Shown: positions 2,443 to 58,789, counted from the stretch's first letter. The stretch is DNA of 64,000 nt from Candidatus Bathyarchaeia archaeon (GCA_049512075.1 JBEKXL010000001.1:224001-288000); one strand, 5' to 3'. Made by a program: numbers and translations. Notes: generated from the sequence alone by a model not told the origin.

Positions 2443-3392
2443 TTTGGAAGAACCCAGTTGAGGACTACAGTTTCTCCGACAAAATGTCCGTGGACGAACT
2501 CGTCCTGCAGATGGAAAAAGCCTGGGGATTCACTGCTGGAAAACTGGCCGTGGGCGTGAAAATCCTCGAAGACATGATCAGAGACAAGAAGTGCGTCAAG
2601 TTTCTCTCCTTCACGGGAAACCTCGTGGCCACGGGAGCCCGAGGCGCTTTGAAGGAGTTCGTGAAACAAAAGCTCGTCGACGTTATCGTAACGACCTGTG
2701 GCACACTAGACCATGACGTTGCCCGAAGCTGGAAAGACTACTACAGGGGTTCATTCGTCATGAGCGATGCCAAACTGCACGAAAAAAACATTAACCGCTT
2801 GGGAAACGTTCTTGTTCCGAACGAAAGCTACGGCCTTATCATCGAGAAGAAAATGCAAGGATTACTGCAGAGCCTATGGGAAGAAGGCACCAGAGAGGTT
2901 TCGTCAGCCCAACTGTCCCGCGAGATTGGAAAACGCATCTGCAACGAAAGCTCCATCCTCTACTGGGCAGCTGAGAATGACGTGCCGGTCTTCGTGCCAG
3001 GCATCACCGACGGCGCAGTCGGATACCAGACCTGGCTTTTCTCGCAAGATCACGATTTCAAGCTCAACTTGCTGAAGGACTCCGGACAGCTGAGCGACAT
3101 CGTCTTCTCAGCAAAAAAGACCGGCGCCCTGCTCATAGGCGGCGGAATATCGAAGCATCACACGCTCTGGTGGAACCAGTTCAAAGACGGCCTCAACTAC
3201 GCCGTGTACATAAGCACGGCAGTGGAATGGGACGGCAGCCTTTCTGGCGCTAGGCCCCGGGAAGCAGTTTCATGGGGCAAGATAAACGAGAAAGCCGAGA
3301 AAATCATGATTGAGGGCGACGCTTCACTCATACTGCCCATAATGGTAGGCTCACTATTAGCAAGGGTTGGAAAACCTAGGGAACGTGGCTGA
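2439..3392 (+). CDS. dys: Deoxyhypusine synthase
   Basis: FLSFTGNLV, GGGISKHH, DGSLSGARPREAVSWGK with catalytic Lys. Confidence 0.92.
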   Translation: MIWKNPVEDYSFSDKMSVDELVLQMEKAWGFTAGKLAVGVKILEDMIRDKKCVKFLSFTGNLVATGARGALKEFVKQKLVDVIVTTCGTLDHDVARSWKDYYRGSFVMSDAKLHEKNINRLGNVLVPNESYGLIIEKKMQGLLQSLWEEGTREVSSAQLSREIGKRICNESSILYWAAENDVPVFVPGITDGAVGYQTWLFSQDHDFKLNLLKDSGQLSDIVFSAKKTGALLIGGGISKHHTLWWNQFKDGLNYAVYISTAVEWDGSLSGARPREAVSWGKINEKAEKIMIEGDASLILPIMVGSLLARVGKPRERG

Positions 3393-4437
3393 AGAGCCAC
3401 GAGAGATCCGGCCCTTTCCTCTTCGCCTTCACCCTCTCGTTGAGCGCGTGAGTTATCAGCGGCAAAGCGATCGTCGCGTCACAGTAGCAAACGGCTCTTT
3501 TCCCCGTTGTATCGATTTTCCCCCAGCTTATCGCCTCTTCAAGCGTGCAGCCTGACAAGCCCCCCCACTGCTGCGAATCAGTTGTTATTTGAATCGCATA
3601 ACGGTGTGGATAGTAGTACTCCTTTATCCCCTTGCGCAGGTGACCCTTCCTTCCAGGAACCCCCTCATCCATCGTTTTAGGCGAAACCGAAATGGCCAGC
3701 AGCTGAGTGAAGTCTTTAGGCACGCCGCCGCCTATGTAGATGACGCCCACCTCCTTGGTCTTCTCGCCTATGCCCACGAACTGGTCAAACTCTTTAACCG
3801 CGTCCAGCACGATAGGGTGACCCTCGTTCTTGGCCATCAAGAAAGCCTCGCCATAAGCGCTATCGGTTATTGCCGGACAGAAAACTGGTACATTGTGGGC
3901 TGCTGCCGTTGCGACTATGCTCTTCACGCCTTTCTTGTTCAGGTATTTACCGAACACGTACAGAAGCTCAGCAGAAGTGTAGGGATACGCTTTTTTCAGA
4001 GTCTTGAGACCGTTGGTCATGAGCAACTCCATCTCTCGGTAATCGGTTTCCTTCCCGTAAACGTCGTAGTACCTGTTCACGTCCGCTTTCAAAAGCTTCT
4101 CATCGTCAGCGTAATGCGTGCCCTGCCAGTAGCCGAGCCCCATGGCGTCGACGATGTCCTCCGATACGTTCGCTCCCGTCGAAACAAGAACGTCGATGAA
4201 ACGGTTCTCTATCAACCAATTAACCATTTTCCACTGACCGGCCGTGCTCATCGACCCCGAGAAACCCATGATAATGACCATATCCTTCTCCTTCACCATC
4301 GCTTCCCAAACGTCAACAGCTTCCCCGAGCTTTCTCCCCTGGTAAGCCGTTTCGCTCATTTCAGCCAACAGCTTGGATACGCTCTTCTCTTCAACGTCGA
4401 TGGCTTTTACCTTCCTCTTGAAGTATGAGCTGGACAT
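3376..4437 (-). CDS. Second deoxyhypusine/homospermidine synthase-family paralog
   Basis: STGANVSED, GGGVPKDF, GGLSGCTLEEAISWGK. Confidence 0.88.
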   Translation of the reverse strand: MSSSYFKRKVKAIDVEEKSVSKLLAEMSETAYQGRKLGEAVDVWEAMVKEKDMVIIMGFSGSMSTAGQWKMVNWLIENRFIDVLVSTGANVSEDIVDAMGLGYWQGTHYADDEKLLKADVNRYYDVYGKETDYREMELLMTNGLKTLKKAYPYTSAELLYVFGKYLNKKGVKSIVATAAAHNVPVFCPAITDSAYGEAFLMAKNEGHPIVLDAVKEFDQFVGIGEKTKEVGVIYIGGGVPKDFTQLLAISVSPKTMDEGVPGRKGHLRKGIKEYYYPHRYAIQITTDSQQWGGLSGCTLEEAISWGKIDTTGKRAVCYCDATIALPLITHALNERVKAKRKGPDLSWLFSHVP

Positions 4438-4548
4438 GCTGAAACCTCTCGTTGTAGATTAAGAGTACAGTATAAGAGATTTTTGATTCCGAGGCTCGCC
4501 CAAGAACGAATACGCTTTCAGCTGTGGCATCGAGAATCAGTACGTACA

Positions 4549-4917
4549 CTAGAGTTTGATCGCTTGCCCTTTCCGCTGTTTCTCCCTGCACTGGTCAAGT
4601 GTTTCTACCGCGCGTCGTATGTGCGGAATCGTGATTGAACCGCCCACTATCAAGGCTACGTTCAGCGCTTCAAGAAGCTCTTCGTCCGAGACTCCTTCTT
4701 GAACGCAGCGGATGACGTGATAAGTGATGCAGTCGTTGCAACGTAAGACAGTGGAAGCGACCAAACCCATCATCTCCTTTGTTTTCACGTCTAGAACGCC
4801 TTTCTCGTACGCGCGACTGTCCAAAGCAAAAAACCGCTTAATCCCAAGGTTTCCAGCAGAAAGAATACGCTCGTTCATCTTTTCACGGTAACGCCTGAAC
4901 TCTTCAAGATCGCTCAA
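4549..4917 (-). CDS. Carboxymuconolactone decarboxylase/AhpD-family protein
   Basis: LDVKTKEMMGLVASTVLRCNDCITYH (CxxC...H). Confidence 0.85.
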   Translation of the reverse strand: MSDLEEFRRYREKMNERILSAGNLGIKRFFALDSRAYEKGVLDVKTKEMMGLVASTVLRCNDCITYHVIRCVQEGVSDEELLEALNVALIVGGSITIPHIRRAVETLDQCREKQRKGQAIKL

Positions 4918-5071
4918 AACATTTCACCGATTTCTTTAGCTATGATGACTGCATAAAACACTTTGCACTCTGCCAAACAACCTCAAAATCGGCCTGCGTG
5001 CGCTATGCCTCGTCAGGGGGGGGGGCGTCGTATATGATTGGGTATTATTACCTAGTCCTGGGGTCTCGATT

Positions 5072-5384
5072 ATGAATAGAGGGAAGATTCTCGTAGTAGG
5101 CGGGGCAGGCCTTCTTGGTTCAAGGCTGGTCCGTGCATTACTCAACGGAGAACACAAGGTTAAGGTTCTCGATACAAGGTATGGAGAGCTCGAAGACGTA
5201 AAGCCCCGCGCAAACCTTGGAATTTGTGGGCATAGGAACCGATGAACTGAGCAGAGGAATGGCAGACAAGCAAATTGTCAGAGAAGCGGTTGAAGATGTC
5301 TACGTTGTCTATCATTTGGCAATTAATTGGGATGGTGCAAGCTGGAAACATGAGATTCCTGTCGTAGATTTGTCAAGCGCGCGC
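5072..5384 (+). pseudogene. NAD-dependent epimerase/dehydratase N-terminal remnant (frameshifted, truncated)
   Basis: ATG 5072 gives MNRGKILVVGGAGLLGSRLVRALL; continues in another frame to AVEDVYVVYHLA and ends at GCGCGCGC 5377-5384. Confidence 0.8.
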
Positions 5385-5390
5385 ATGTTC

Positions 5391-7355
5391 TCACATTTTT
5401 TCGGGGGCCAAGATGCCTATCAGGTTGAGGGCGTTCCGAAGCGCTATTCGAAGTGCATGTGTCAGGGCGAGTCTTGCGCTGCTTAGTCCTTGCGGTTCGG
5501 CTCTTATCACCGGAAAAGCGTTGTAGAACGTGTTGAACTTGTCTGCCAAGGAGTTTGCGAAGTCGGCGATGAGGTTTGGCTTGAGGTATTCCGCTGCTTC
5601 TATGAACGCGTCTGGGAAGCTGGCCAGTGTCAGGATTATTTCGTGTTCTAGCTTTTCGTTTAGCAGCTCGAAGGCTGGCTCTCCTGTCTTTTCAGCTGCT
5701 TTCTTCAGGATGCTGCATGCTCTGGCGTGGGTGTATTGAATGTAGGGTGCGCTGTTCTTCTCGAAGTTCAGCACTCGGTCCCAGGTGAAAACTACAGGTT
5801 TCGAAATGTCAACTTCGACGAGCGCGTAGCGGACGGCGCCCAAGCCGACAAAGTCAGCGATTTCCTGTTTCTCCTTTTCTGACAGTTGCGGTGAGCGCTT
5901 CGAAACTTCTTCGTAGGCTCGTCTTACAGCTTCGTCCATGACTTCGTCGAGGGTTATGTAACGTCCTCTTCGACTGGACATCTTGTAGCCTGGAAGAGTT
6001 ACCAGGTTGTAGGCGAAGTGAATCAGGTTGTCCGCTATCTTGCCGTAGCCCAGAGCGTGCAAGGCTATTTTCAATTGCAGTTGAGCAAGACTCTGCTCCA
6101 TGCCAATAACGTTGATGACTCTTTCAGCTCTTTCAAACTTCCACAAGGTGTAGGCCGCGTCTCTGGTGGTGTAAAGCGTTGTGCCGTCTGCACGACCCAG
6201 TGTTAAGGGTGGAACTTCGTGGCCTTCTCTTATGCCAAGCTTGGCCCAAAGCCCCTGTTGCGTGACGACCTTTTCAGCGTCGAACTCCAAAACGCCGCCT
6301 TCAGCGTAGGTGTAAGGTGACTGTTTGAGTTTCTGGAAAACCTCGTTCACGTGTCCGCTCCACACAAAGTCGCTCTCCCAGTCCCACGAGTCGAATGAAA
6401 CGTCGATTCTGCCCAGCGTCTCCCTGAACCCTTTCAGGCACATCTCGCTGACCTGTCGGATTAGCTGTTTGGCCTTCTCTTCCTTCAACTCATAAGCCTT
6501 GTTCAATATCTTTATCGATTCTTCAGGATTCTTGTCCTTAACTATTCTATCCAGCAGTTCCTCGAAGAGAGTCGGATACTTGTCTTTCACCTCCGCGGCG
6601 ATGGAAACCCAATCGTCCAGTTCCCTCGTGATTTTGGCGATTTCCTCTGCGGCCGAAACGGTTTTCGCGTTTTCAAGCTCCTTCTTCAGCCGGTTTATTT
6701 CAACGAGGCAACTCGTGATAGTGTAGATTCTGCCGATGAACTGGTCAGGCTTGCCTTCTGGTTTGGGCTTTCCCAGTTTTTCGTAGCCGTAGGCGATGAC
6801 TGAGGTCTGGCGGCCCACATCGTCAATGTAGAAGTGGCGGCTCACTGTGTGTCCTCTGTTTCTGAGCAGGCGAGAAAGGGTGTCGCCGAGCACGGGGTTT
6901 CTGGCTGTTCCGATGGTGAGAGGGTGAAGGGGGTTTGCGCTCGTGTGTTCAACGATGATTTTCAAAGGCTCGTCCGTCTTGACGAAACCGTATCCAGCGT
7001 CCAAGCTTCTGGCAGATTCAAGGGTCAAGGCTGAGAACTTGGCGAAGTCAACATGGAAATTAACGTAGCCTCCTCCTGCAGCGGCAACACTGCTTATCAG
7101 GGAAAACTCGGAAGGGTCTACGGCCTTGGCAAAGCGTTCAGCCAGCGCTAAAGGTTTCTCTCCCAGTTTCTTGGCGAGCTCAAAACACAATGATGAAGCT
7201 AGTTGTCCAAACTCGGGGTTCGGGGGTTTCTCTATCGCTAAGTTGCCGATCTGGATTTCTGGAAACAGCTTCTTGAAAGCATGGGCTAGGCTCTCCTCGC
7301 ACTCTTTTCGGAAAGCTGCGAAAGGGTTCTCTGCAACGGGTGACGCTTTTTTCAT
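5391..7355 (-). CDS. argS: Arginyl-tRNA synthetase
   Basis: EHTSANPLHPLTIG (HIGH-like), KMSSRRG, PYIQYTHARACSIL. Confidence 0.97.
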   Translation of the reverse strand: MKKASPVAENPFAAFRKECEESLAHAFKKLFPEIQIGNLAIEKPPNPEFGQLASSLCFELAKKLGEKPLALAERFAKAVDPSEFSLISSVAAAGGGYVNFHVDFAKFSALTLESARSLDAGYGFVKTDEPLKIIVEHTSANPLHPLTIGTARNPVLGDTLSRLLRNRGHTVSRHFYIDDVGRQTSVIAYGYEKLGKPKPEGKPDQFIGRIYTITSCLVEINRLKKELENAKTVSAAEEIAKITRELDDWVSIAAEVKDKYPTLFEELLDRIVKDKNPEESIKILNKAYELKEEKAKQLIRQVSEMCLKGFRETLGRIDVSFDSWDWESDFVWSGHVNEVFQKLKQSPYTYAEGGVLEFDAEKVVTQQGLWAKLGIREGHEVPPLTLGRADGTTLYTTRDAAYTLWKFERAERVINVIGMEQSLAQLQLKIALHALGYGKIADNLIHFAYNLVTLPGYKMSSRRGRYITLDEVMDEAVRRAYEEVSKRSPQLSEKEKQEIADFVGLGAVRYALVEVDISKPVVFTWDRVLNFEKNSAPYIQYTHARACSILKKAAEKTGEPAFELLNEKLEHEIILTLASFPDAFIEAAEYLKPNLIADFANSLADKFNTFYNAFPVIRAEPQGLSSARLALTHALRIALRNALNLIGILAPEKM

Positions 7356-7443
7356 TTTGTTGAAGGTTCTCCAGCAGTCTAAGAGATGAGGTTATATTTT
7401 AATCTGGAAAATATCAACCTATCTGAAAAATGGGTGCGCGGCT

Positions 7444-8286
7444 ATGAGGACGAAAATCGTGTTTTCGGAGAAGTGTCTACGCTACGGGTCCTGGCACGTT
7501 GAAGGACCTGAAAGAGTCAGGAAAGCACATGAAATCCTGAGGAGCAAGGGCTACGAGTTCTTGAAGCCAGAACCAGCGTCAGAGGACGACTTGCTCAAGG
7601 TTCACGACCACGAGTACCTGTGGGCGGTCAAGAAGGGACTGGTCGAGGACGGCGACACCCCGGCCTATGACAACATTTTCGAGTACGCAAGACTCTCGGT
7701 CGGAGGAGCCATTCTGGCCGCAAATATCAAGGGGTTCTCGCTCATGCGTCCGCCTGGCCATCACGCGGGAAGGACTGGAATAGCGTTAGGCGCCGCCACT
7801 AGAGGGTTCTGCTATTTCAACAATATAGCCATAGCTGTGAAAAGCCTAGACAAACCCACTCTGATCTTGGACATCGACGGGCATCACGGAAACGGAACCC
7901 AAGAAATCTTCCAAGGCGACAAACAGGTAACATATGTCTCTTTGCATCGGCACCCGAACTATCCTGGCACAGGCACAGCCTCTGAAGGAAACTGCCATAA
8001 CTATCCTCTGCCACGAGATTGTGGAGACACCTTCTACGTAAAGACTCTCGACAAAGCGTTAGGCACCGTTGATATCGGCAGGTTTGAAGTCGTGGGTGTT
8101 TCGGCAGGGTTTGACACGCACGACGGAGACATAGCTTCACTTGGCCTGACGGCGAAAGGTTACAGGGCGATTGGAGAGAGGATTGGATCTTTAAAGAAGC
8201 CCACTTTCTTCGTCCTAGAAGGCGGCTACGAGGGTGAGAACGTGGGGAATGACATAGATCAACTTGTCAGGGGCTTTGAAGTCTAG
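7444..8286 (+). CDS. Histone deacetylase/AcuC-family deacetylase
   Basis: RPPGHHA, GFCYFNN, DIDGHHGNGT, SAGFD, LEGGY. Confidence 0.92.
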   Translation: MRTKIVFSEKCLRYGSWHVEGPERVRKAHEILRSKGYEFLKPEPASEDDLLKVHDHEYLWAVKKGLVEDGDTPAYDNIFEYARLSVGGAILAANIKGFSLMRPPGHHAGRTGIALGAATRGFCYFNNIAIAVKSLDKPTLILDIDGHHGNGTQEIFQGDKQVTYVSLHRHPNYPGTGTASEGNCHNYPLPRDCGDTFYVKTLDKALGTVDIGRFEVVGVSAGFDTHDGDIASLGLTAKGYRAIGERIGSLKKPTFFVLEGGYEGENVGNDIDQLVRGFEV

Positions 8287-8337
8287 CCGCTGTTCATCCG
8301 AAACGGATGCAACGAGTCGAAGAAGACTTAGATGACG

Positions 8338-9141
8338 CTATTTGATGAGTCTCCTTTTCATCAGGTTTATGGCCAGAACGAAAAAGACTGGTGTCACTGC
8401 CGCTATCCACACGAGACTTGGAATAAAGGATAGCTCCCCGCTGCCGAAAATCGACCACCTAGTCAAGTTCACAGTGTGCGTCAACGGCAGAACCGCCTGT
8501 GCAAAGATCTGAAGAGGCCGAGGAAGCAGTGTTAATGGAAAGAAAGTGCTGCTGAGCAAGAACATTGGAGTTATGAAAAGATACTGCGGATAATTGAAGA
8601 AATCTATGTTCGGCGCCAGCGCCGTGAAGCAGAGCCCGATTGCCGAGAACATCAGTCCAGCGAAGAAGGCCACCGGTAGAACCAGCAGGAACAGAGGACT
8701 CGAGATCAGTCCGAAGGCGGCTACGACGCCTAAGACTATGGCGCCACCGATGAGACTTCGGGTAGCGCCCCACAGTATCTCGCCTGCAATGACCTCTTCG
8801 ATGCTTATCGGCGTCGCTATGATGGCGTCGAAGGTCCTCTGATAGTACATGCGAACGAATGATCCGTACGTGCACTCAAAGAACGAGGAGTACATGATGG
8901 TTATCGACACCAAGGCGGGCGCTAGGAACTGTATGTACGATTGGCCTTCTATTGACTGTGTGATTAGCGCTCCCAAGCCGGTGCCCATAGCGGCGAGGTA
9001 GAAGATGGGTTCGAGCAGGGGAGGGAAAAAGTTCGTTTTGAAGGTTTTCATGAAGACGTCAAAGTTTCGCCGCCAGACCTTCCACACCCTATAGGTTAGT
9101 TTGGGTAGTCCGAAACCCTCAGGTTTCTGCGGAGCCGTCAC
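8338..9141 (-). CDS. ABC-2 type exporter permease (NodJ-like)
   Basis: Multiple TM segments, TPMFLLSSTFFP, LPLTH; overlaps the ATPase gene. Confidence 0.9.
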   Translation of the reverse strand: MTAPQKPEGFGLPKLTYRVWKVWRRNFDVFMKTFKTNFFPPLLEPIFYLAAMGTGLGALITQSIEGQSYIQFLAPALVSITIMYSSFFECTYGSFVRMYYQRTFDAIIATPISIEEVIAGEILWGATRSLIGGAIVLGVVAAFGLISSPLFLLVLPVAFFAGLMFSAIGLCFTALAPNIDFFNYPQYLFITPMFLLSSTFFPLTLLPRPLQIFAQAVLPLTHTVNLTRWSIFGSGELSFIPSLVWIAAVTPVFFVLAINLMKRRLIK

Positions 9142-50561: not shown

Positions 50562-50883
50562 TTAATCCACAGATAGACTTTGTGCAGATGCTCCATTTCT
50601 AGTTTGGCTCTGCATCAAGCGGGACCGCGGCGCTGCGATTTTCGAGCTGAGCTCCATCGGAAATAGCGTGCGCTTGATTGTGGGTTCGGCTTTTGGTGCA
50701 CCGTCCGACCGCGCGCGCTGATTCGGAGACATCCTGCCCACACGTTGGACAGTTCTTGACACCCTCTTTCAATAATCTGTCATGCGGCAATAGCTCATTT
50801 CTTAGTGCGCATTTCACCGTAAGCATTATTTAAGATCGGCCAATATAGAAGCCATTCATAGCGCGCGCTAAAAGGTCCTTTGG

Positions 50884-52326
50884 ATGGATGATTTAATCTT
50901 CGGAGCCAGCGACTTTGGAGCTCTGGATCTAATTAGAAAGTTCAACGAGGAACATTGGAAAGGTTCTGAAACGGATCTAGGTTGGCGTTATGATCTGGAG
51001 AATGATGACCCAAAAGTCGTAGAAATTAGAGAATCTTTGCAGAAGATACAGGACAAGCTAGAGTCTCTCAGGGCATATTTTGCGGGAAAGAATGAATACA
51101 CGGGCCTAGTTTCGGCTGTTCAGAAAAAAACGAATGGCAGAACAAACAGGTACCTATCTCATCTCTGGCTGTATTTCGTGAAAGGTTTGGAGAACAAGCC
51201 GCCAAATGAACCTCAGCTTCAGATCACGATAAAGTCGCAAGGCATCTCTACTTCATTATGGTTCGAGAACAAAAAGGCTAACGAAGAATATCTTAGAGAT
51301 TTCATCGACAACTATTCTGAGCATCTGAAATCCATGGACAAAATCGCTTTCGAGGTCTACGCGCCGCAATTAGGTGGCAAACTCACAAACTCCTATTCAA
51401 AAATCGAATGGAATGAATTTGTGAAGGAAATATCAAGTCTGAACTATGACTGCAAGGTTAGCCTAAACACAGGTATTGATAAGGATGAAGTGTTGTCCTC
51501 AGGGAAAGGAATAGTCTCTCTGATTGACAAACACCTGAGCATCATAAAACCTCTGTTTGACCATGCTACAAATCCAGGTAAAAGGTTCATATTGGCTAAC
51601 ATTGAATGGAACGACTACGGTTGGACAAAGCCCCAAATACCGAGCAATCCAAGCTTCGGATACGCAATAGATGGGAATATGCCCCATGATACCCTGAATT
51701 TCAAATTTGACAAACCTGCCGATACTGGCGATAACGTTTACGGTTATTTCCAAACAGGAATAGGTGGACCAAAGGAATTCCTAAAATGCAAAGACCAAGA
51801 CAAAATCATCTTTTTCTATTCCAGGAGAAAAATCGTTGGAGCGTTTGGCGCTGCCGAATACCTTAGTAAAACCATCGAGTACGACCACAATGCGTTTGAG
51901 AATGGCAAACACTTTTTGAACATAGTTGGAAGAAGAGACCTGTCGCTAGGGTTCCTCAAAGAGGCTCAATTGGACTCAAGACCTGAATACATGAACGACA
52001 AGGTAATGGGAAGGAGCAATTTCATTTATATTAGCTGCACAAACGCAAAACGAATTCTCGAAGACGTCATTAGCAAATATCAGAAGATAATCGCGGAAAA
52101 TCCCCAAGACAATGATGCGAAAGAGCAAAAGAGAAAATTGAATAACTTGATAGAAACACTCGGACCTCTGCCGCAACTCCAAGACAAGAACGGAGAAGAC
52201 GTGTTTGATCTTCTTTCTGAGAAGAAACAGATAATTCTGTACGGGCCACCAGGGACTGGGAAAACATATAAAGCTCACAGAGTTGCCATCCAATTTCTGA
52301 GAGGTGATCAAAGTGAGCATTACTAG
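50884..52326 (+). CDS. McrB-like sensor subunit 1, ending just after Walker A
   Basis: KKQIILYGPPGTGKTY, then stop 19 aa after GKT; no Walker B. Confidence 0.8.
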   Translation: MDDLIFGASDFGALDLIRKFNEEHWKGSETDLGWRYDLENDDPKVVEIRESLQKIQDKLESLRAYFAGKNEYTGLVSAVQKKTNGRTNRYLSHLWLYFVKGLENKPPNEPQLQITIKSQGISTSLWFENKKANEEYLRDFIDNYSEHLKSMDKIAFEVYAPQLGGKLTNSYSKIEWNEFVKEISSLNYDCKVSLNTGIDKDEVLSSGKGIVSLIDKHLSIIKPLFDHATNPGKRFILANIEWNDYGWTKPQIPSNPSFGYAIDGNMPHDTLNFKFDKPADTGDNVYGYFQTGIGGPKEFLKCKDQDKIIFFYSRRKIVGAFGAAEYLSKTIEYDHNAFENGKHFLNIVGRRDLSLGFLKEAQLDSRPEYMNDKVMGRSNFIYISCTNAKRILEDVISKYQKIIAENPQDNDAKEQKRKLNNLIETLGPLPQLQDKNGEDVFDLLSEKKQIILYGPPGTGKTYKAHRVAIQFLRGDQSEHY

Positions 52327-52966
52327 CATGCCTACATCTGAAATTGCACTACTCGGCCCAACAAGTGAATACTATGTTGATGAATGCATGGAATTCATAA
52401 AAAATAGAGGCAAAATTTGCACTAGTTGGACTTATTCTCTGTCACAGGACAAAATTGTTTTGTTGAAAAAACAGATTGAATCGGAAAAGTATTTCCACTT
52501 ATACTTTCAGATCTCGAAAAGTTCTGGCGGTTCCGGTTTAGTTAATTACAGAGCAAGAGTAATAGACTTTCAATTCTCTGAAAATGAAACACCGTCACCT
52601 GACCCAGACTATTCTACAGATGAAGAGAGTGCGCAAACAGGACGTGGATGGTACACGTTTGACAGAATAGAACAATTGACACCAAGTCGTTCTTTGGAGT
52701 CTTTCGAGTCCTTCGACAATAGTGAGAACATTAGCCAAAACATGTTCTCCCGCATGCGTCAACCACACTCACCGTTCATATTAGTCAAGGATTTCAAGAT
52801 ACCTGTGAAGAGCATGCCTGAGGCTGTTGGGTTTGGGAATCTAAGGACCCTTCTAGAAGAGAAGAAGCAAATAATCTTTTACGGCCCGCCGGGTACAGGG
52901 AAAACGTGGTATGCCAAGAGGTTCGGAGAACTTTTTCTCAAGGAGCCTTCGAAGAAATCTGAATGA
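52313..52966 (+). CDS. McrB-like sensor subunit 2, ending just after Walker A
   Basis: GAGGTGA SD-like site before GTG 52313; KKQIIFYGPPGTGKTW, then stop 19 aa after GKT. Confidence 0.8.
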   Translation: MSITSMPTSEIALLGPTSEYYVDECMEFIKNRGKICTSWTYSLSQDKIVLLKKQIESEKYFHLYFQISKSSGGSGLVNYRARVIDFQFSENETPSPDPDYSTDEESAQTGRGWYTFDRIEQLTPSRSLESFESFDNSENISQNMFSRMRQPHSPFILVKDFKIPVKSMPEAVGFGNLRTLLEEKKQIIFYGPPGTGKTWYAKRFGELFLKEPSKKSE

Positions 52967-52972
52967 AAGGTT

Positions 52973-54184
52973 GTGAACTATGTGGAGAAACGCGAAAGTA
53001 GCGCTCAAGAAGCATGGAAAAACAAGAGAATAGAAAGCATCAAGTTAATCGATGCGCCGCAGGGAGTGAAAGAAGAGCTAGTTAAAGCCATAATTTCAGA
53101 AGACAAGAAAAAGTTTGCTCAAATAACGCAAAGGGAGAACCTCGGCGAGATAATTGGAAAACTACGCTGGAGTGAAGAAGGAAATCTCTCTCTTTTTGAT
53201 GCCCCTTGGTTCGCAACGTCTTGGACAAATGGCGAGAGTGCGAAAGATGCCAGCAGATTAAAATTCATTACCTTTCATCCCTCCTACAGTTATGAGGAGT
53301 TTGTTGAAGGAATTACTGTTGATACAAGTCAGGGGTCACAAGAACACAAATCAGGCGAGATACGTTACCTGAGAAAGCCAGGGATATTCAAGAGAATTTG
53401 TACTGCTGCCCTTGCCCAAGCTATAGGAGAAAAAACAGACCCTGGTGTCGATGGTGATCAATGGAGCCGAATTTATGCAAAGTATGTGGAGAAAACCAAG
53501 AACAAACAAGCCACTATGGACGCAGTTTGGAAGAGCGCAGACAGGTTCGTTTTGATCATTGATGAGATAAACAGGGGTGATGTCTCCAAAATTCTAGGAG
53601 AACTGGTGACATTGCTTGAAAGTGACAAGAGACTGGGTCAGGAAAATGAACTAACAGTCCAGTTGCCATATTCAAACGACGTGTTCGGTGTTCCGCCTAA
53701 TGTGTACATAATAGGAACAATGAACACCGCAGACAGGAGTATCGCGTTAGTAGATATTGCTTTGCGCAGGAGATTTGGTTTCGTAGAAACACCCCCAGAC
53801 TTCAAGGCAGTCAGGACAGAGCACATTGAGAAGAACAGGGAAATGCTCCAAGATAATCAAGTCTACGAGTATCTAGTAAAGTCTGTGGACGCAATTGAGA
53901 AGATCAATGGCAGAATCATAGATAGTTTAGGAAGGGACAAACAGATAGGGCATTCCTTTTTGTTCAAAGTCTTTGACCAGAAAGGTCTAATGAGAATGTG
54001 GCAATATGAGCTTCTCCCGCTCCTTGAAGAGTACTACTACTGCGATTACGAGAAGATAACAAAAACACTAGGACTGCAGGCCAAGAACATCTATGTCAAC
54101 AAGGATGAAGGAATCAAGGGCTTTAATGGTATTGCAGAACTAGACCAATTCTTGAATGCAATACTCAAGGCCGCGGGAACGTAA
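52973..54184 (+). CDS. mcrB: McrB GTPase body lacking Walker A
   Basis: FITFHPSYSYEEFVEG, IIDEINRG, GTMNTADRS, ALRRRF, QIGHSF. Confidence 0.88.
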   Translation: MNYVEKRESSAQEAWKNKRIESIKLIDAPQGVKEELVKAIISEDKKKFAQITQRENLGEIIGKLRWSEEGNLSLFDAPWFATSWTNGESAKDASRLKFITFHPSYSYEEFVEGITVDTSQGSQEHKSGEIRYLRKPGIFKRICTAALAQAIGEKTDPGVDGDQWSRIYAKYVEKTKNKQATMDAVWKSADRFVLIIDEINRGDVSKILGELVTLLESDKRLGQENELTVQLPYSNDVFGVPPNVYIIGTMNTADRSIALVDIALRRRFGFVETPPDFKAVRTEHIEKNREMLQDNQVYEYLVKSVDAIEKINGRIIDSLGRDKQIGHSFLFKVFDQKGLMRMWQYELLPLLEEYYYCDYEKITKTLGLQAKNIYVNKDEGIKGFNGIAELDQFLNAILKAAGT

Positions 54185-55502
54185 AATGAGCGAAGTATTC
54201 GACGTTGAGGAGAATTCACCTGGAAAAGAGCTGGATTTTGAACTAACCGAAGAAGATGCAGCCTATTTAAATAACGAGGTTTTCATGAGCGGTAGTAGAA
54301 AGAACATAGAGGTCTTCTATAAATCAAGAGAAGGAAGACCTCATATCAAGGTCGGTCCGTATGCTGGGATAATCCAACTTAGTAATAGACGAATTCACTT
54401 CTCCACTAAGGTGAATACTCGACTTTTCTACATGCTGAGTTATCTCAAGAATGAAGATGAGTTCCTTTACGACCCAAACACACCTATTGAAATGAAGGAA
54501 GGCATGAATTTCTTTGACATCATAGGGAAGTTCTTCCTAAACTATCTGAATGAGTTACTTGAGCGAGGTCTTCTTAAGAAATACGTCAAGAAAAGGGAAA
54601 ACCTACGTTTTTTGAAGGGGAAGCTGTCAATTGGCGACCAGATAAAACATAATTCTGTTGACAAATCCAAGTTCTTCTGTGAATACTATGATTTGACTTT
54701 TGATAATTTGGAAAACCGGATCATCCTAAGTGCTTTGAACTCTCTGATCTCCCTGATAAGATTCAACCTCAGAATAAGGAACGAGTTGAAGAGACTGGAG
54801 ACGATCCTCCAAGATTTTGTCATGTTGAGTAAAGTGAATCCTCAGGAATGCAGTCGTGTCAAGTTTAATCGAGTAAACCAGTACTATGAACCAATAATCA
54901 GACTGTCAAGGCTTATTCTAGAGGAAAGGTACCTCAGAAGTGTTTTCAAAGGGGAATCGCGAGGGTTTAATTTCATAGTCAACATGAATAGAGTCTACCA
55001 AGATTTCATAACGCAAACAATTGAGGAGATCATGACTGAGGATGAGGGATTTGAGGGGTTTGAAGTTGTAAAGGAACCTCGCTTCAAGAGTCTTGTCAAA
55101 GAAAGGGCAATAGTAACACAGCCGGATATTGTCATAAAGAGAGGTCCGAAGAAATACCCGCTGATAATCGACGCAAAGTATAAGAAAGATGACCCGAATG
55201 CAGACTACTATCAAGTAATCGCGTATAGTCTGGCGCTGAGAGAATCGAACGACGTTTGCTGTCTGATTTATCCTTCGTCTGAAGGCTCAAAAATCGACAC
55301 AGAGCCGCTTACTTTGGTGCAGAATCTTGCAGAAGAAAATTCAAGAGTTGTAAAGCTGCAAGCTAAAACAATTGACCTGTTCTTGCAGGGAGACGAGAAA
55401 ATGGAATATGCTGATTACATCAATGCAATAAAGAACCAAGCTAAGAACATACTCGTGGGTCTCATCGGCGGAGGAGAAGAATCAAACACTACGACGAACT
55501 AG
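54156..55502 (+). CDS. mcrC: McrC-family nuclease
   Basis: FIVNMNRVYQ, QPDIV, IIDAKYK, DYYQVIAY; likely start at ATG 54186. Confidence 0.9.
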   Translation: MQYSRPRERKMSEVFDVEENSPGKELDFELTEEDAAYLNNEVFMSGSRKNIEVFYKSREGRPHIKVGPYAGIIQLSNRRIHFSTKVNTRLFYMLSYLKNEDEFLYDPNTPIEMKEGMNFFDIIGKFFLNYLNELLERGLLKKYVKKRENLRFLKGKLSIGDQIKHNSVDKSKFFCEYYDLTFDNLENRIILSALNSLISLIRFNLRIRNELKRLETILQDFVMLSKVNPQECSRVKFNRVNQYYEPIIRLSRLILEERYLRSVFKGESRGFNFIVNMNRVYQDFITQTIEEIMTEDEGFEGFEVVKEPRFKSLVKERAIVTQPDIVIKRGPKKYPLIIDAKYKKDDPNADYYQVIAYSLALRESNDVCCLIYPSSEGSKIDTEPLTLVQNLAEENSRVVKLQAKTIDLFLQGDEKMEYADYINAIKNQAKNILVGLIGGGEESNTTTN

Positions 55503-55529: not shown

Positions 55530-56507
55530 ATGATTGAGGCCAAGAGGTTCCTGAGAGGTTCGCAGATGGCTGAGGAGCTGCGAAACTCGATAGACGAGGC
55601 AGAAACAATCAAAATTGCGGTGGCTTTCCTAAAGGATGGTGGCTACCATGAAATAGACGCCAATTTGGAGCAGGCGCTTAACAATGGTAAAAGTATTGAT
55701 TTCATAGTTGGAGCCTGCCCAAGCTATCACATAACCGATCCACATGTTCTCCGTGAACTGAAACAGTTGGAAGAAAGACATCCTAATTTCAACCTAGGCT
55801 TCTTCTCCAAAGGAGATTTCCATCCAAAACTGTTCATTTTTCAAAAAACAAATACTGTCAAAGTAATTATCGGAAGTTCCAATTTGACTTCTGGAGGAAC
55901 GGGCGATAATGTTGAGGCAAACATACTCGTTGAAGGTAACGCCGGAGAGCAATTGATTAAAGAGATCATGGCTTTCTTTGATGATGAGGTTTTACCTGCA
56001 TCATACACTCTGACAGGTGAATACATCAAATATTATGAGGAGATTTTCAATACCCTTGCGAGAAGCGCAAAAAGAACTGATAGATGGCAGATGCCAAAAC
56101 TGCTACCAAAATCTGGCTCGCCACGGTACAGGCTATACCTTGAAGATATACACCCTTTGAATGAACGCCGAGCAGCTTTCGACAAGAAACACAGGATTTC
56201 GAAATATGCCCAAGGTGCTGTTTATTCTTGGAACAAGAATAATGAGATTGACGGAATTGTTGTTCTTTGGTATAAAAGCAACATAGAACAATATTTTCCG
56301 AACGAGAACCGCCCATATCTAACGGTAGGTAGATACCTAGTTGTAAATAACCTTAGACAAGGAATGGACATCTACCTAGTCGAGAACAAATATGACAGAG
56401 AATTAGGCACAAAAAGGATAGACAATCCGAAGGCTAGGGCATACGGAAAGCTTAGAGCTGTAACGCGGGTAGATGGAGATTCAGAGATCCAAATATTCCC
56501 ACACTAG
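55530..56507 (+). CDS. PLD-family (HKD) nuclease, NgoFVII-like N-terminal domain
   Basis: IAVAFL, FHPKLFIF, IIGSSNLT. Confidence 0.82.
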   Translation: MIEAKRFLRGSQMAEELRNSIDEAETIKIAVAFLKDGGYHEIDANLEQALNNGKSIDFIVGACPSYHITDPHVLRELKQLEERHPNFNLGFFSKGDFHPKLFIFQKTNTVKVIIGSSNLTSGGTGDNVEANILVEGNAGEQLIKEIMAFFDDEVLPASYTLTGEYIKYYEEIFNTLARSAKRTDRWQMPKLLPKSGSPRYRLYLEDIHPLNERRAAFDKKHRISKYAQGAVYSWNKNNEIDGIVVLWYKSNIEQYFPNENRPYLTVGRYLVVNNLRQGMDIYLVENKYDRELGTKRIDNPKARAYGKLRAVTRVDGDSEIQIFPH

Positions 56508-56588
56508 CGCACTACTGTTCACAGGGCAAAGATGGCTCTACATCCAAATGATAAGCTGACTACAGAGAGATGCGCGCGCGCTTTGACG

Positions 56589-57299
56589 CTACACAAGTGC
56601 ACGAATATGGCTCAATAATTGTCCCAGAAACTGATCTGCAGACAGGTCTTCAGACGGCTCTGAATAATTCTCAGTTTGTTCCGCACGCTGCTTGTCTGCC
56701 AGCATGAAACAAGCGGAGTTATAGTGTCGTTCCAGAACCAATTTCCTACACAGCAATTCGTATCTTCGTGCATAGGACGCTTCTTTGAATTCAGGAAAGA
56801 CTAGGAAATGAGGTTCTGAAATCTTTACAGGGGTTGTCGATTTGGAGCATTCTTCCAATAGGAAAAGATAACCGAGCCAAGGTTGAGGAGATTGCTTGAA
56901 AGCACGTTCTCTGTATGCTGTCCATATATCGACTGCGCTTCCTATAGCTTCCTCTGTCCTATTGTTGAAATTGTTTCCGAAGGAAGGACCGACTTGCGAT
57001 TTTAGCTCAACAGCAGCCAACAACTTACCTTTTGAAACAACCACTATATCCCATTCTTTCGTAGGTCTGAAGAACCCTGGGAGTTCCTTATTCTTCACAG
57101 CATAAATATCCGAGGCACTGGCTCCTGCAGCTATCATCAGATCCCTAATCTTCACAGCAAAGCTATTCATCTGCTGACCCCCAGTGACAGCAGGTCTCGA
57201 ACCCTGATCTGCTATACCTTTTTCTGCTTGCGCACCACGGATTTTCCAGAAATCCCTCACAGCAGCTGAAAAAACGTGAGGTTCAATATTAGGAATCAT
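56589..57299 (-). CDS. PaeR7I/XhoI-family type II restriction endonuclease
   Basis: AVTGGQQM, LPGFFRPTKEWD, ELKSQVGPSFGNNFNNRTEEA. Confidence 0.9.
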   Translation of the reverse strand: MIPNIEPHVFSAAVRDFWKIRGAQAEKGIADQGSRPAVTGGQQMNSFAVKIRDLMIAAGASASDIYAVKNKELPGFFRPTKEWDIVVVSKGKLLAAVELKSQVGPSFGNNFNNRTEEAIGSAVDIWTAYRERAFKQSPQPWLGYLFLLEECSKSTTPVKISEPHFLVFPEFKEASYARRYELLCRKLVLERHYNSACFMLADKQRAEQTENYSEPSEDLSADQFLGQLLSHIRALV

Positions 57300-57314: not shown

Positions 57315-58697
57315 TCAAGAACTATATAATCTCTCAGGGATTGGTAATTCTTTAAGCGCACTACTTTGTAGCCTTATGAAGTTGTTTGCGGCTCTTTGGG
57401 AGTTCTTTGCCAGCCAATCTCTGGCGAGATCACTCCTGAGATATTCTAGTAGGTCTCTTATTCTTGAAACATGCTTGGGAACAATATAATACACTGAGTG
57501 CCTAGGAATAAATAGTCCATCTCCATCCAGCCAAAAGTAGGGCCGAGCGGCAATGTCCTTACAGAGTATTTTAGAGCAAAGGAGATCCTTCATCGGAGGG
57601 TTTTCATGAAACGCATACCAAGGTTTCTTTCTGCAGCAAGATCTTTGTTTGAGCCTCGCAGCAATATGCGGTTGAGACAGATACTTACCAAAATCTCCGA
57701 GTTTCTCAAAAGGGATCAATTCGCCTTGTTCATCATAGGGTACAAGGATAGAGTAAAGCGAAGGCAACTTTTCGTCTTCATAACGCAATTCCCTACCAGA
57801 AATTGTAGGGTATGCGAATGCTTCAAGATATGAATCCAAGGTGTCAGTTCTTTTAATAAAGATCTCATCGGAGCCGGTTGCTACGCCACAACTAATTCTA
57901 ATGCAAATATCTTTCAGTTTATGGTTCATACAGATATTTACGCTACCATTCAACGTTGGCAGCCATCTTTCGCCATTCTTAGGCAGGGTCGCTTTCTGGG
58001 TTGTTCCATTTCGATAACTGACTTCAGTTTCTCTTAAAGGTGGTGAGTTCTCGACAATTGTAATTGTCGGGTAAGTTGTCAAGCCACTGAAAGCATTCTC
58101 TTTGAGGAACTCAATTTCTCTTACTTGCATCCCGGCCATTATTCGGCGGAGAGGTCTTGAGGTTTCTACGTAGGTGTATTTCTCAGGCGTAATGAATACA
58201 AGCCGTCCATCTTTTTTGAGAATCTTCAAAGCTTTTTCAAAGAAAAGCAAATACAAATCAAACCTGCTTCGCGCCGTTTCATACAAGGGCTTGTAAAGGC
58301 GTTTCTCCTCTTCAGAGAGTTGAAGTATGGAGACATAGGGCGGATTGCTTATAATAAACTCGTATTCTCCGTCGCAAGTCGCCAAGAAGTCGCGTTCTTC
58401 AACTCTAACTTCAGGGTATTCTCTAAATCTGTTTCTGGCAATCGACCCTAATTTAGGGTCAAGCTCCACGCCTATGATTCTCGGAAGCGGGTTTTTATGT
58501 TTTTGGCACCATAGAATAATACCTTCGATAAAATCTCCCGCGCCGCAGCCAGCATCGAGAAGTGTGTCACTAGATTTCGGCGCTCGATCCTCAAACAATT
58601 TAGCTACCATATGTTCTACTATCGTGGCAGGAGTCTGAAAGTGGCCTTTGGCAGTCAACAAAGCAGCATCCCCTAGGCAATTTTCAGCAAGTGACAT
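57315..58697 (-). CDS. Cognate N6-adenine methyltransferase (PaeR7I/TaqI-like)
   Basis: LDAGCGAGDF, SNPPY, DLYLLFFE, GVATG. Confidence 0.9.
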   Translation of the reverse strand: MSLAENCLGDAALLTAKGHFQTPATIVEHMVAKLFEDRAPKSSDTLLDAGCGAGDFIEGIILWCQKHKNPLPRIIGVELDPKLGSIARNRFREYPEVRVEERDFLATCDGEYEFIISNPPYVSILQLSEEEKRLYKPLYETARSRFDLYLLFFEKALKILKKDGRLVFITPEKYTYVETSRPLRRIMAGMQVREIEFLKENAFSGLTTYPTITIVENSPPLRETEVSYRNGTTQKATLPKNGERWLPTLNGSVNICMNHKLKDICIRISCGVATGSDEIFIKRTDTLDSYLEAFAYPTISGRELRYEDEKLPSLYSILVPYDEQGELIPFEKLGDFGKYLSQPHIAARLKQRSCCRKKPWYAFHENPPMKDLLCSKILCKDIAARPYFWLDGDGLFIPRHSVYYIVPKHVSRIRDLLEYLRSDLARDWLAKNSQRAANNFIRLQSSALKELPIPERLYSS

Positions 58698-58789
58698 TAA
58701 CAAACAAGAAAGCGATCTTGAAGCATATAAGTGCGCTTGCACTCTCAGCACGCACTTGTGTTAGAGGTTACACTTTGCGCGCGCGCGCG

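What the first reader, a model, noticed from the sequence alone, without database searches (positions are those of the whole stretch)
50884..55502. Split McrB GTPase with two alternative P-loop-donating sensor subunits
Seen: two consecutive, otherwise unrelated proteins each end with KKQII(L/F)YGPPGTGKT plus exactly 19 residues. The third protein has the rest of the McrB AAA+ domain (TFHPSY, Walker B DEINRG, MNTAD, RRRF) but no Walker A; mcrC follows. The second gene has its own SD-like site. Established: canonical McrB carries specificity domain and complete GTPase in one chain, and the segment after the Walker A helix tolerates insertions. Inference: the GTPase is reconstituted in trans, so interchangeable sensors plug into one motor/McrC nuclease, giving a modular type IV restriction system. 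Caveat: genes 2 and 3 are in frame and separated by a single TGA (52964-52966), so a nonsense mutation or readthrough is possible. That would not explain the matching end of gene 1.
Basis: partly seen in the sequence, partly recalled or inferred. Interest (0 to 1): 0.8.

Follow-up and report, generated by a model that had tools for sequence, protein, structure and literature searches.

The report
Split McrB motor with interchangeable sensors
This anti-virus DNA-cutting system encodes its motor protein in pieces: two different DNA-sensor proteins each carry the motor's nucleotide-binding loop and probably plug into one shared motor body, a layout that recurs in many other microbes and seems not to have been described.

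Summary
Gene 1 (50884-52326) and gene 2 (52313/52328-52966) resemble each other only in a C-terminal KKQII(L/F)YGPPGTGKT plus 19 residues. Gene 3 (52973-54184) is a McrB body with Walker B, NTAD and RRRF motifs but no Walker A. mcrC follows.

The TGA between genes 2 and 3 appears without differences in contigs of three sequencing runs, two of them not flagged as a possible source.

The layout recurs. Of 160 related loci fetched, 16 (14 distinct systems) have a Walker-A-less body preceded by ORFs that stop 12-22 residues after GKT, or about 130-150 in three systems. Counting the window, 8 of 15 systems have two such donors, alike only in the tail.

Gene 1 has four full-length homologs (46-50% identity) that end at the same point. 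A stand-alone donor also carries the gene-2 domain. The donor and body reading frames match in 5 of 15 systems, as chance predicts, so readthrough does not explain it.

A co-fold places gene 1's beta1 strand between beta4 and beta5 of the body (score 0.82, controls 0.00), possibly by likeness to solved McrB structures.

Verdict: a naturally split McrBC with alternative P-loop-donating sensors, a new variant of a known kind. It is untested at the bench. Two loci where a donor precedes a complete McrB remain unexplained. The scan had not noted this layout before.

The parts
50884..52326 (+). Gene 1, sensor/P-loop donor A (480 aa). Domain A is residues 1-230 (DUF1054/YktB-like fold). Domain B is about residues 232-400 (YTH/EVE-like fold, modest support). 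A helical linker follows, then alpha0-beta1-Walker A-alpha1 (residues about 437-473), then the stop.
   Evidence: ORF and sequence. AF2 model, pLDDT 81.5. 2a8e Z 17.2, rmsd 2.9, 198 aligned; YTH/EVE rows Z 6-7.5. Full-length homologs with the same end.
52210..52323 (+). Tail of gene 1 (residues 443-480): LLSEKKQIILYGPPGTGKT + 19 aa. This is the beta1 strand, P-loop and helix alpha1 of the AAA+ fold.
   Evidence: Co-fold contacts: residues 449-453 with body 243-246 and 265-268; residues 464-468 with body 190-192.
52301..52308 (+). GAGGTGAT Shine-Dalgarno-like site inside the end of gene 1. It lies 4 nt before GTG 52313 and 19 nt before ATG 52328.
   Evidence: Public gene calls start gene 2 at either codon: P0142/P0147 217 aa, P0149 212 aa.
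52313..52966 (+). Gene 2, sensor/P-loop donor B (217 or 212 aa). It has one N-terminal domain with a weak YTH-like fold match, homologous to the domain that directly precedes Walker A in fused McrBs P0003-P0007 and P0009. Then come beta1-Walker A-alpha1 + 19 aa and TGA.
   Evidence: 36-50% identity to those fused proteins. Model pLDDT 75.5. Foldseek YTH rows E about 1e-3, TM 0.3-0.46. Stand-alone donor P0150.
52964..52966 (+). TGA stop of gene 2, in frame with gene 3.
   Evidence: No differences in contigs of X1, X5 and X6.
52973..54184 (+). Gene 3, McrB motor body without Walker A (403 aa; alternative GTG start at 52982 gives 400 aa = P0002). It has an extension of about 90 aa with no recognised relatives, then beta2 (LKFITFHPSY), Walker B DEINRGD, the NxxD signature MNTAD, RRRF and the lid.
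   Evidence: catalytic columns invariant in 38 Walker-A-less bodies. Comparison of the extension (the 99 aa from the codon after the TGA) with P0019 is not significant, E 0.23.
54186..55502 (+). mcrC (438 aa): DUF2357/McrBC family with a C-terminal PD...DAK nuclease motif. It starts 1 nt after the stop of gene 3.
   Evidence: PF10117 2.3e-50. Motif QPDIVI...IIDAKYK read.
55530..56507 (+). PLD-family (NgoFVII-like) nuclease gene 27 nt after mcrC. It may be an accessory or an independent restriction gene. Listed as context, not shown to belong to the system.
   Evidence: PF13091 1.3e-9 and PF09565 3.6e-9.

Best explanation
This is a McrBC-type (Type IV, GTP-dependent) restriction system whose McrB subunit is naturally split in the loop between helix alpha1 and strand beta2 of the AAA+ GTPase domain.

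Two different sensor proteins are encoded. Gene 1 has a DUF1054-like domain plus a YTH/EVE-like domain. Gene 2 has one YTH-like domain. Each ends with alpha0-beta1-Walker A-alpha1. Gene 3 encodes the rest of the GTPase: beta2-beta5, Walker B, the NxxD signature, arginine fingers and the lid. It cannot bind GTP alone.

Inferred mechanism: each body protomer folds around the tail of one donor, with beta1 inserted between beta4 and beta5. This rebuilds a complete nucleotide site and tethers that donor's DNA-reading domain to the motor. The complemented protomers form the usual ring, which recruits McrC to cut. Because both donors fit the same body, one motor and nuclease serves two specificities, probably in mixed rings.

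What is shown: the gene structure, its recurrence elsewhere, the conservation of donors and bodies, and purifying selection on both donors of one related two-donor system (L090/L091). What is inferred: binding in trans, GTPase activity, mixed rings, and the DNA marks that are read.
For: (1) Recurrence. Among the 80 genome loci, 7 have a body ORF with no Walker A, and 6 of these have upstream ORF(s) ending in Walker A plus a short or long tail. Among the 80 metagenome loci, 15 lack Walker A in the body ORF, and 10 have such donors. With the window this makes 15 distinct systems, from Methanoperedens, Methanococcoides, Woesearchaeota, Planctomycetia, Leuconostoc, a deltaproteobacterium and unnamed metagenome contigs.

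(2) Two donors occur in 8 of the 15 systems: the window, L002, L005, L014, L083, L089-91, L094 and L095. In all 8 the two donors are similar only in a 25-41-aa tail (66-81% identity).

(3) Tight operons. L002, for example, reads 4543-5322 / 5324-5962 / 5965-6924 / 6926-8212.

(4) The break sits at one structural point. The 22 short-tailed donor ORFs listed stop 12-22 aa after GKT. Many bodies start about 17 aa before (I/L)EFITFHP.

(5) Frames. The proximal donor and the body are in frame in 5 of 15 systems, as chance predicts.

(6) Donors are conserved proteins. P0123-P0126 are 46-50% identical to gene 1 over 98-100% of its length and have the same end. P0150 is a donor with the gene-2 domain. 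P0131 and P0132 are orthologous distal donors with swapped N-domains, DUF2461 versus MrcB_N.

(7) Selection. Between L090 and L091, dN/dS is 0.27 for the distal donor (25 synonymous, 27 nonsynonymous changes; Fisher p 5e-6) and 0.42 for the proximal donor (p 8e-5), with no indels.

(8) Thirty-eight Walker-A-less bodies keep Walker B, NxxD and RRRF invariant.

(9) In the window, the 15 identical-residue codons around Walker A differ at 9 synonymous sites and the longest identical DNA run is 8 nt. So this is neither a recent duplication nor a substrate for recombination.

(10) Co-fold of the body with gene 1 residues 425-480: ipSAE 0.82 in 3 of 3 runs, best of 3 controls 0.00. That mark was reached by 58 of 80 solved complexes and 2 of 110 mismatched pairs. 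Runs agree in at least 79% of contacts and partner pLDDT is 65-67. beta1 lies between beta4 and beta5.

(11) The alpha1 helices of the two donors of a locus are more alike (mean 5.6 of 12) than those from different loci (3.6 of 12; permutation p 0.00035).
Against: There is no experimental or expression evidence.

The co-fold may pass simply because the pair resembles solved single-chain McrB structures. Only gene 1's tail was folded; gene 2's was not.

In the window, genes 2 and 3 are in frame across one TGA. Stand-alone donors with the gene-2 domain are rare: only P0150 among the 136 hits, and none among proteins of 116-371 aa. Its domain is otherwise seen in fused McrBs (P0003-P0007, P0009).

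L088 and L092 have a Walker-A-terminal donor upstream of a McrB that has its own Walker A. Simple complementation does not explain this, and it fits a relic or regulatory role for distal donors.

The ortholog of the L030 body on an Enterococcus faecium plasmid is a single fused 1146-aa gene, so some splits may be recent breaks.

L049 and L129 lack both a Walker A and a detectable donor.

The within-locus similarity of alpha1 helices could reflect shared ancestry rather than co-adaptation. In the window the value is only 4 of 12.

Some of the 39 'Walker-A-less' database proteins may be N-terminally truncated gene calls.
Confidence: 0.62

Rival explanations
1. Distal donors such as gene 1 do not complement the motor. 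They are leftovers of N-terminal module replacement, or regulators or competitors that cap the body or titrate it. Only the proximal donor (gene 2) works with the body.
For: L088 and L092 carry a donor-type ORF upstream of a McrB with its own Walker A, where complementation seems unnecessary. The alpha1 helix of gene 1 matches that of gene 2 at only 4 of 12 positions.
Against: Gene 1 has four full-length homologs at 46-50% identity with the same end. The distal donor of L090/L091 has dN/dS 0.27 and no indels. The distal donors P0131 and P0132 stay intact while swapping N-domains. The tail of gene 1 co-folds in the canonical beta1 position. A relic would not end precisely after alpha1 in all 22 short-tailed donor ORFs listed (12-22 aa).
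Confidence: 0.15
2. In this window, genes 2 and 3 are one fused mcrB gene recently broken by a nonsense mutation (TGA 52964-52966), so the locus is dead or dying.
For: The two genes are in frame with a single stop. The closest proteins that carry the gene-2 domain are mostly fused: P0003-P0007 and P0009.
Against: Fused relatives have only about 36 aa from the start of the Walker A motif to FHPSY. The read-through here would have about 130, including roughly 90 aa absent from them. A start codon with an AGG(T) site follows the stop. The TGA is identical in contigs of 3 runs. All catalytic motifs of the body and of McrC are intact. P0150 stops at the same point. The same break recurs in 14 other systems, with frames distributed as chance predicts.
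Confidence: 0.1
3. Translational recoding (stop-codon readthrough, frameshifting or ribosome hopping) joins the proximal donor to the body into one chain, so the split is only apparent.
For: The window, L033, L085, L094 and L096 are in frame. Gaps between genes are short.
Against: Ten of 15 systems need a +1 or -1 shift, with no common slippery context examined or evident. In-frame cases occur at the chance rate of 5 in 15. Bodies have their own start codons. Distal donors would need a bypass of 640-1200 nt. Low-level TGA readthrough in the window cannot be excluded.
Confidence: 0.05

Closest known systems
Canonical McrBC (E. coli K-12 McrBC; Thermococcus gammatolerans YTH-McrB/McrC, PDB names as cited in earlier scan notes and recalled)
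   Same: An AAA+ GTPase with Walker B, the NxxD signature and arginine fingers. A McrC partner with DUF2357 plus a PD-(D/E)xK nuclease lies directly downstream. The DNA-reading domains are N-terminal to the P-loop, and a YTH-like reader is plausible, as in T. gammatolerans.
   Different: Here the reader domains and the beta1-Walker A-alpha1 segment lie on separate polypeptides from the rest of the GTPase, and there are two alternative such polypeptides.
McrB homologs with a domain inserted after the Walker A helix. The McrBC census in PMC11090510 notes insertions (passages seen). Earlier scan notes e1-1144681, e1-088831 and e1-2714168 describe the same.
   Same: The same position in the fold, the alpha1/beta2 loop, is the permissive site. 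Walker A to Walker B distances run from 59 to 361 aa in the fused loci.
   Different: Those proteins are single chains. Here the chain is cut at that site. In L035, L085 and L089-91 the cut lies after the insertion instead.
Tandem complete mcrB paralogs before one mcrC (L037, L054)
   Same: Two different N-terminal sensor modules serve one McrC.
   Different: Each paralog has its own complete GTPase. The split system shares one body.
Type I restriction-modification systems with alternative or shuffled HsdS specificity subunits (recalled, not tested here)
   Same: It works alike: interchangeable specificity subunits plug into a common motor and nuclease.
   Different: HsdS is a separately folded subunit that docks on a surface. 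Here the specificity subunit would contribute a core beta-strand and the nucleotide-binding loop of the motor's own fold.
E. coli McrB-S, the short product from an internal start (recalled, not tested here)
   Same: More than one McrB-derived polypeptide from one locus modulates assembly.
   Different: McrB-S keeps a complete GTPase and lacks the DNA-binding domain. Here it is the GTPase fold itself that is divided.

Membership tests
McrB GTPase (McrBC Type IV restriction) | Walker A P-loop GxxGxGK[ST] | tested here: met
   GPPGTGKT is present in gene 1 and gene 2 but absent from the body, gene 3. The feature is met only across polypeptides.
McrB GTPase (McrBC Type IV restriction) | Walker B (DExx), McrB signature NxxD, arginine-finger region RRRF | tested here: met
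   DEINRGD, MNTAD and RRRF are in gene 3. These columns are invariant in 38 Walker-A-less bodies. The motif names are recalled; NxxD is also named in PMC11090510.
McrB GTPase (McrBC Type IV restriction) | Profile match to the AAA_5 / McrB-type AAA+ domain | tested here: met
   PF07728 at 3.1e-9, above its cut-off, but covering only model positions 65-139 of 139.
McrB GTPase (McrBC Type IV restriction) | DNA-binding domain and complete GTPase in one chain | tested here: not met
   Stop codons at 52324-26 and 52964-66 separate the sensors plus P-loop from the body. The TGA was verified in contigs of three runs.
McrB GTPase (McrBC Type IV restriction) | Adjacent McrC with DUF2357 and a PD-(D/E)xK nuclease | tested here: met
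   PF10117 at 2.3e-50. The PD...DAK motif is read in the sequence.
McrB GTPase (McrBC Type IV restriction) | GTP hydrolysis, ring assembly, modification-dependent cleavage | not testable with these tools
   Only a co-fold model is available: ipSAE 0.82 versus 0.00 for the controls.
Split intein (protein trans-splicing) | Hint-domain blocks, a nucleophile (C/S/T) after the junction, a conserved terminal Asn | tested here: not met
   No Hint or intein family appears in the Pfam scans of 24 donors and one body (gene 3) at E up to 0.01. P0019, another body, was scanned only at E up to 0.001. Donor ends are variable (...SEHY...KKSE...GEVD...LLKV...DVCR) and continue helix alpha1 of the extein.
DUF1054 / YktB fold (gene 1, domain A) | Fold similarity over the whole domain | tested here: met
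   2a8e at Z 17.2, rmsd 2.9, 198 of 210 aligned; 3mqz at Z 12.7. No Pfam sequence hit. Related donors carry DUF2461 or MrcB_N in that position.
YTH/EVE (PUA-like) modified-base readers (gene 1 domain B, gene 2 domain) | PUA-like barrel fold with an aromatic cage | tested here: inconclusive
   Gene 1: YTH/EVE rows at Z 5.7-7.5, in the range the tool calls common. Gene 2: Foldseek YTH rows at E about 1e-3, TM 0.3-0.46. Cage residues were not examined.

The most novel reading that the evidence does not exclude
The P-loop segment has become a universal plug. Any sensor protein that ends in beta1-Walker A-alpha1 can complete the shared McrB body. One ring would then carry a mixture of sensors and would cut only, or best, DNA that bears two different marks, or it would cover two kinds of modified phage DNA with one motor. 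Donors upstream of complete McrBs (L088, L092) would mean that the plug can even displace a covalently attached P-loop segment, or pair with internally initiated bodies. That would be a general mechanism for exchanging subunits inside a P-loop NTPase fold.
Probability: 0.3. Interest if true: 0.9.

Novelty: new variant of a known kind. Interest (0 to 1): 0.8.

Why it matters
McrBC is the textbook GTP-dependent restriction system, and its motor is treated as a single chain. If the nucleotide-binding loop really is supplied in trans by interchangeable sensor proteins, three things follow.

First, it would be a natural case of a P-loop NTPase core divided between polypeptides at a defined point.

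Second, it would explain how defence systems swap specificities without rebuilding the motor.

Third, it would give a ready design for retargeting a translocase-nuclease by exchanging a small plug-bearing subunit.

It also matters for annotation. About a third of the 120 nearest homologs of this body lack Walker A. Pipelines call them McrB family proteins and give most donors no name, or call them generic AAA ATPases.

Tried and rejected
**Split intein.** Rejected. See the membership test.

**Recombinational switching between the two Walker A coding segments.** Rejected. The longest identical run is 8 nt and there are 9 synonymous differences.

**Homology of gene 3's roughly 90-aa N-terminal extension to the conserved N-region of the roughly 475-aa bodies (P0019 type).** MAFFT placed them together, but BLASTP gives E 0.23. 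The claim is dropped and the extension stays unexplained.

**BsuMI/LlaI as a known functional three-gene split McrB.** This was a recalled lead. The search for ydiR/ydiS/ydjA found nothing useful.

**Relatives' genomes.** The body was not found in the 60 relatives searched. Gene 1 relatives turned up in only 1 of 400 genomes of the phylum besides the window's own: G083, the same locus type as L083. No orthologous locus was available to compare the TGA across strains.

**RNA evidence.** No RNA holder was listed, so nothing can be said on expression.

**dN/dS of the body between L090 and L091.** The ungapped comparison is unreliable (65% nucleotide identity) and was discarded.

**Rfam.** No match anywhere in the window.

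**Literature.** Five full-text searches and passages of PMC11090510, PMC7641849 and PMC12707154 gave no description of a split McrB. The word 'split' occurs 0 times in the main text of PMC11090510. Supplements were closed, and Supplementary file 1 of that census could list such architectures.

**** failed on a frame slip in my coordinates and was corrected.

**Not done.** Gene 2's tail was not co-folded, because the cap was one job.
Full report
**1. What is in the window**

Four co-directional, tightly spaced genes lie at 50884-55502.
- Gene 1 (50884-52326, 480 aa) ends EKKQIILYGPPGTGKT plus 19 residues, then TAG.
- Gene 2 starts at GTG 52313 or at ATG 52328. GTG 52313 lies 4 nt after a GAGGTGAT site at 52301-52308. 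Gene 2 ends EKKQIIFYGPPGTGKT plus 19 residues, then TGA at 52964-52966.
- Gene 3 (GTG 52973 or 52982 to 54184) has FITFHPSYSYEEF, DEINRGD, MNTAD and RRRF but no P-loop. Pfam AAA_5 matches only the last 75 of its 139 model positions.
- mcrC starts 1 nt after gene 3 and matches PF10117 at 2.3e-50.

Genes 1 and 2 are alike only at 443-473 versus 180-210 (68% identity). Genes 2 and 3 are in frame across the TGA.

The TGA stands in contigs of three runs with no differences. One run may be the source of the assembly, and two are from other studies.

In the 15 codons that encode identical residues around Walker A, the two genes differ at 9 synonymous sites, and no identical DNA run exceeds 8 nt. The shared tail is therefore kept by selection on the protein. 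It is not a recent duplication and gives no substrate for homologous recombination.

The locus sits in a defence island. A PLD nuclease gene lies 27 nt downstream, and an XhoI-type endonuclease with an Eco57I/TaqI_C-type methyltransferase lies on the other strand. The body was not found in the 60 relatives' genomes searched, which fits horizontal acquisition.

**2. The split is a recurrent architecture**

Of the 120 best database homologs of the read-through gene 2-3 protein, 41 had no G..G.GK[TS] before Walker B. Two of those carry GPPGTSKT, which leaves 39 of 120. The window's own protein is among them, and some may be truncated gene calls.

I fetched DNA around relatives from two collections.
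- **80 genome loci.** In 7 the body ORF lacks Walker A. In 6 of those, upstream ORFs on the same strand end with Walker A: L002, L005, L014, L030, L033 and L035. L049 has none within 2.5 kb. The other 73 are fused.
- **80 metagenome loci.** In 15 the body ORF lacks Walker A, and 10 of those have donors: L082, L083, L085, L089-91, L093-96. In 4 the contig ends too close to the body. L129 has 1.6 kb upstream and no donor. One locus gave no body, and 64 are fused.

Counting L089-91 as one system and adding the window gives 15 distinct split systems.

Their operons are tight. L002, for example, runs donor 4543-5322, donor 5324-5962, body 5965-6924, mcrC 6926-8212.

All 22 short-tailed donor ORFs listed stop 12-22 residues after GKT. 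In three systems the cut instead lies after an inserted domain, at +130 to +152. Many bodies begin about 17 residues before (I/L)EFITFHP. The cut therefore falls in the alpha1/beta2 loop. This is the same loop that carries insertions in single-chain McrBs, where Walker A to Walker B distances run from 59 to 361 aa. The McrBC census notes such insertions (PMC11090510, passages).

The proximal donor and the body share a frame in 5 of 15 systems, which is the chance rate. That argues against readthrough as the general explanation.

**3. Two donors are common**

Eight of the 15 systems have two donors: the window, L002 (Methanoperedens), L005 (Planctomycetia), L014 (Woesearchaeota), L083, L089-91, L094 and L095. 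In all eight, BLASTP finds similarity between the two donors only in a 25-41-residue tail, at 66-81% identity. Two single-donor systems (L093, L096) are cut by a contig end, so they could hold more.

The helix after GKT is more alike between the two donors of one locus (mean 5.6 of 12) than between loci (3.6 of 12; permutation p 0.00035). This fits tails matched to a shared body. Shared ancestry could give the same result, and the window's own value is only 4 of 12.

**4. Donors and bodies are under selection**

Gene 1 has four full-length homologs, P0123-P0126 (474-478 aa, 46-50% identity, 98-100% coverage). All stop 13-19 residues after GKT. Other stand-alone donors carry only its first domain, its second domain with other partners, or a different sensor array (P0128-P0134 and P0138/139); all except P0127 end the same way.

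P0131 and P0132 are orthologous distal donors, 71% identical over residues 172-435. One begins with DUF2461 and the other with MrcB_N, the E. coli McrB DNA-binding domain family (1.2e-33).

Between L090 and L091, the distal donor has dN/dS 0.27 (25 synonymous and 27 nonsynonymous changes; Fisher p 5e-6). The proximal donor has 0.42 (p 8e-5). Neither has indels.

An alignment of 38 Walker-A-less bodies keeps Walker B, NxxD and RRRF invariant. That is hard to reconcile with dead genes.

An exhaustive HMMER search with gene 2 found P0150 (E 7e-41). This 470-aa protein has the three-domain sensor array of the fused proteins P0004-P0007 but stops 19 residues after GKT. The search also found further short-tailed donors of other kinds: P0220, P0239, P0250 and P0257.

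**5. Structure**

Gene 1 was modelled with AF2 (pLDDT 81.5). Residues 1-230 match YktB/DUF1054 (2a8e: Z 17.2, rmsd 2.9, 198 aligned). Residues about 232-400 give YTH/EVE rows at Z 5.7-7.5, which is only suggestive.

The gene 2 model (pLDDT 75.5) gives YTH rows at Foldseek E about 1e-3 and TM 0.3-0.46, also only suggestive.

The body was co-folded with gene 1 residues 425-480.
- It scored ipSAE 0.82 in all three runs, against 0.00 for the best of three controls.
- In the tool's calibration, 58 of 80 solved complexes and 2 of 110 mismatched pairs reached the mark.
- Runs agree in at least 79% of contacts, and partner pLDDT is 65-67.
- The contacts put beta1 (449-453) between body residues 243-246 and 265-268, and alpha1 against 190-192. 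This is the canonical 5-1-4-3-2 sheet order (the order is recalled).

This pass may come from likeness to solved single-chain McrB structures. It shows that the pieces fit the known fold, not that they bind.

**6. How it most likely works**

Each body protomer is completed by the tail of one donor. This rebuilds the GTP site and attaches that donor's DNA-reading domains. The completed protomers form the ring that McrC binds. Two donors give one motor two specificities, probably in mixed rings. I put this at 0.62.

Rival explanations:
- The distal donor is a relic or a regulator (0.15).
- The window's genes 2 and 3 are a freshly broken fusion (0.10).
- Translational recoding joins the pieces (0.05).

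Findings against my reading, or left open:
- L088 and L092 have a donor upstream of a McrB with its own P-loop. In L088 that McrB (P0028) has a Met exactly at the usual split point, so an internally started body is conceivable. L092 has none.
- The ortholog of the L030 body on an Enterococcus plasmid is a single 1146-aa gene.
- Stand-alone donors with the gene-2 domain are rare.
- No expression data exist.
- The roughly 90-aa N-terminal extension of gene 3 has no recognised relative, and the model does not place it at the interface.

**7. Comparison with what is known, and novelty**

The system is a McrBC by every sequence feature tested except the single-chain layout. I found no description of a split McrB in five full-text searches or in passages of three relevant papers. 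Supplements were closed, and subscription journals are not covered.

Earlier notes of this scan describe the insertion site (e1-1144681, e1-088831, e1-2714168) but not the split.

I rate it a new variant of a known kind, with interest 0.8.

Noticed in passing
window 50711-50718, 50861-50868, 56572-56581, 58777-58788 and 24 other sites: The palindromic octamer GCGCGCGC occurs 31 times in the window against 0.36 expected (0 of 100 shuffles reach it). The four sites checked against ORF coordinates lie between genes, including just upstream of gene 1 and between the PLD and XhoI genes. It may be a genome-wide regulatory, terminator or repeat element.
   Followed up: no
L088:1-588 and 623-1771; L092:4717-5976 and 5978-7945: A donor-type ORF ending in Walker A + 14 aa lies directly upstream of a McrB that has its own Walker A. 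In L088 that McrB is a 382-aa sensor-less protein with a Met exactly at the usual split point. In L092 it is a 655-aa multi-domain protein. Simple complementation does not explain these loci.
   Followed up: partly
L037:565-2322 and 2398-4101; L054:4894-6816 and 6868-8823: Two complete fused mcrB genes lie in tandem. This is another way to give one system two sensors.
   Followed up: no
window 55530-56507: A PLD-family (NgoFVII-like) nuclease gene lies 27 nt after mcrC on the same strand. Its C-terminal half (about residues 160-325) has no Pfam match. It could be a fifth member of the operon or a separate restriction enzyme.
   Followed up: no
window 56589-57299 (-) and 57315-58751 (-): An XhoI-family restriction endonuclease (8e-88) and an Eco57I/TaqI_C-type N6-adenine methyltransferase form a Type II R-M pair that converges on the McrBC operon. 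A methyltransferase beside a modification-dependent system raises a self-compatibility question.
   Followed up: no
L014:5287-6933; L082:6410-7960: Some Walker-A-less bodies carry their own N-terminal sensor-like domain, equivalent to the insertion domain of fused McrBs. A complemented protomer would then have sensors from both chains.
   Followed up: no
L030:4372-5340 and 5337-5672: In Leuconostoc aquikimchii the donor is only 111 aa and overlaps a preceding 322-aa gene of unknown family by 4 nt. The sensor part may itself be split from the P-loop donor, or the locus may be a degraded copy of the fused 1146-aa gene seen on an Enterococcus faecium plasmid.
   Followed up: partly
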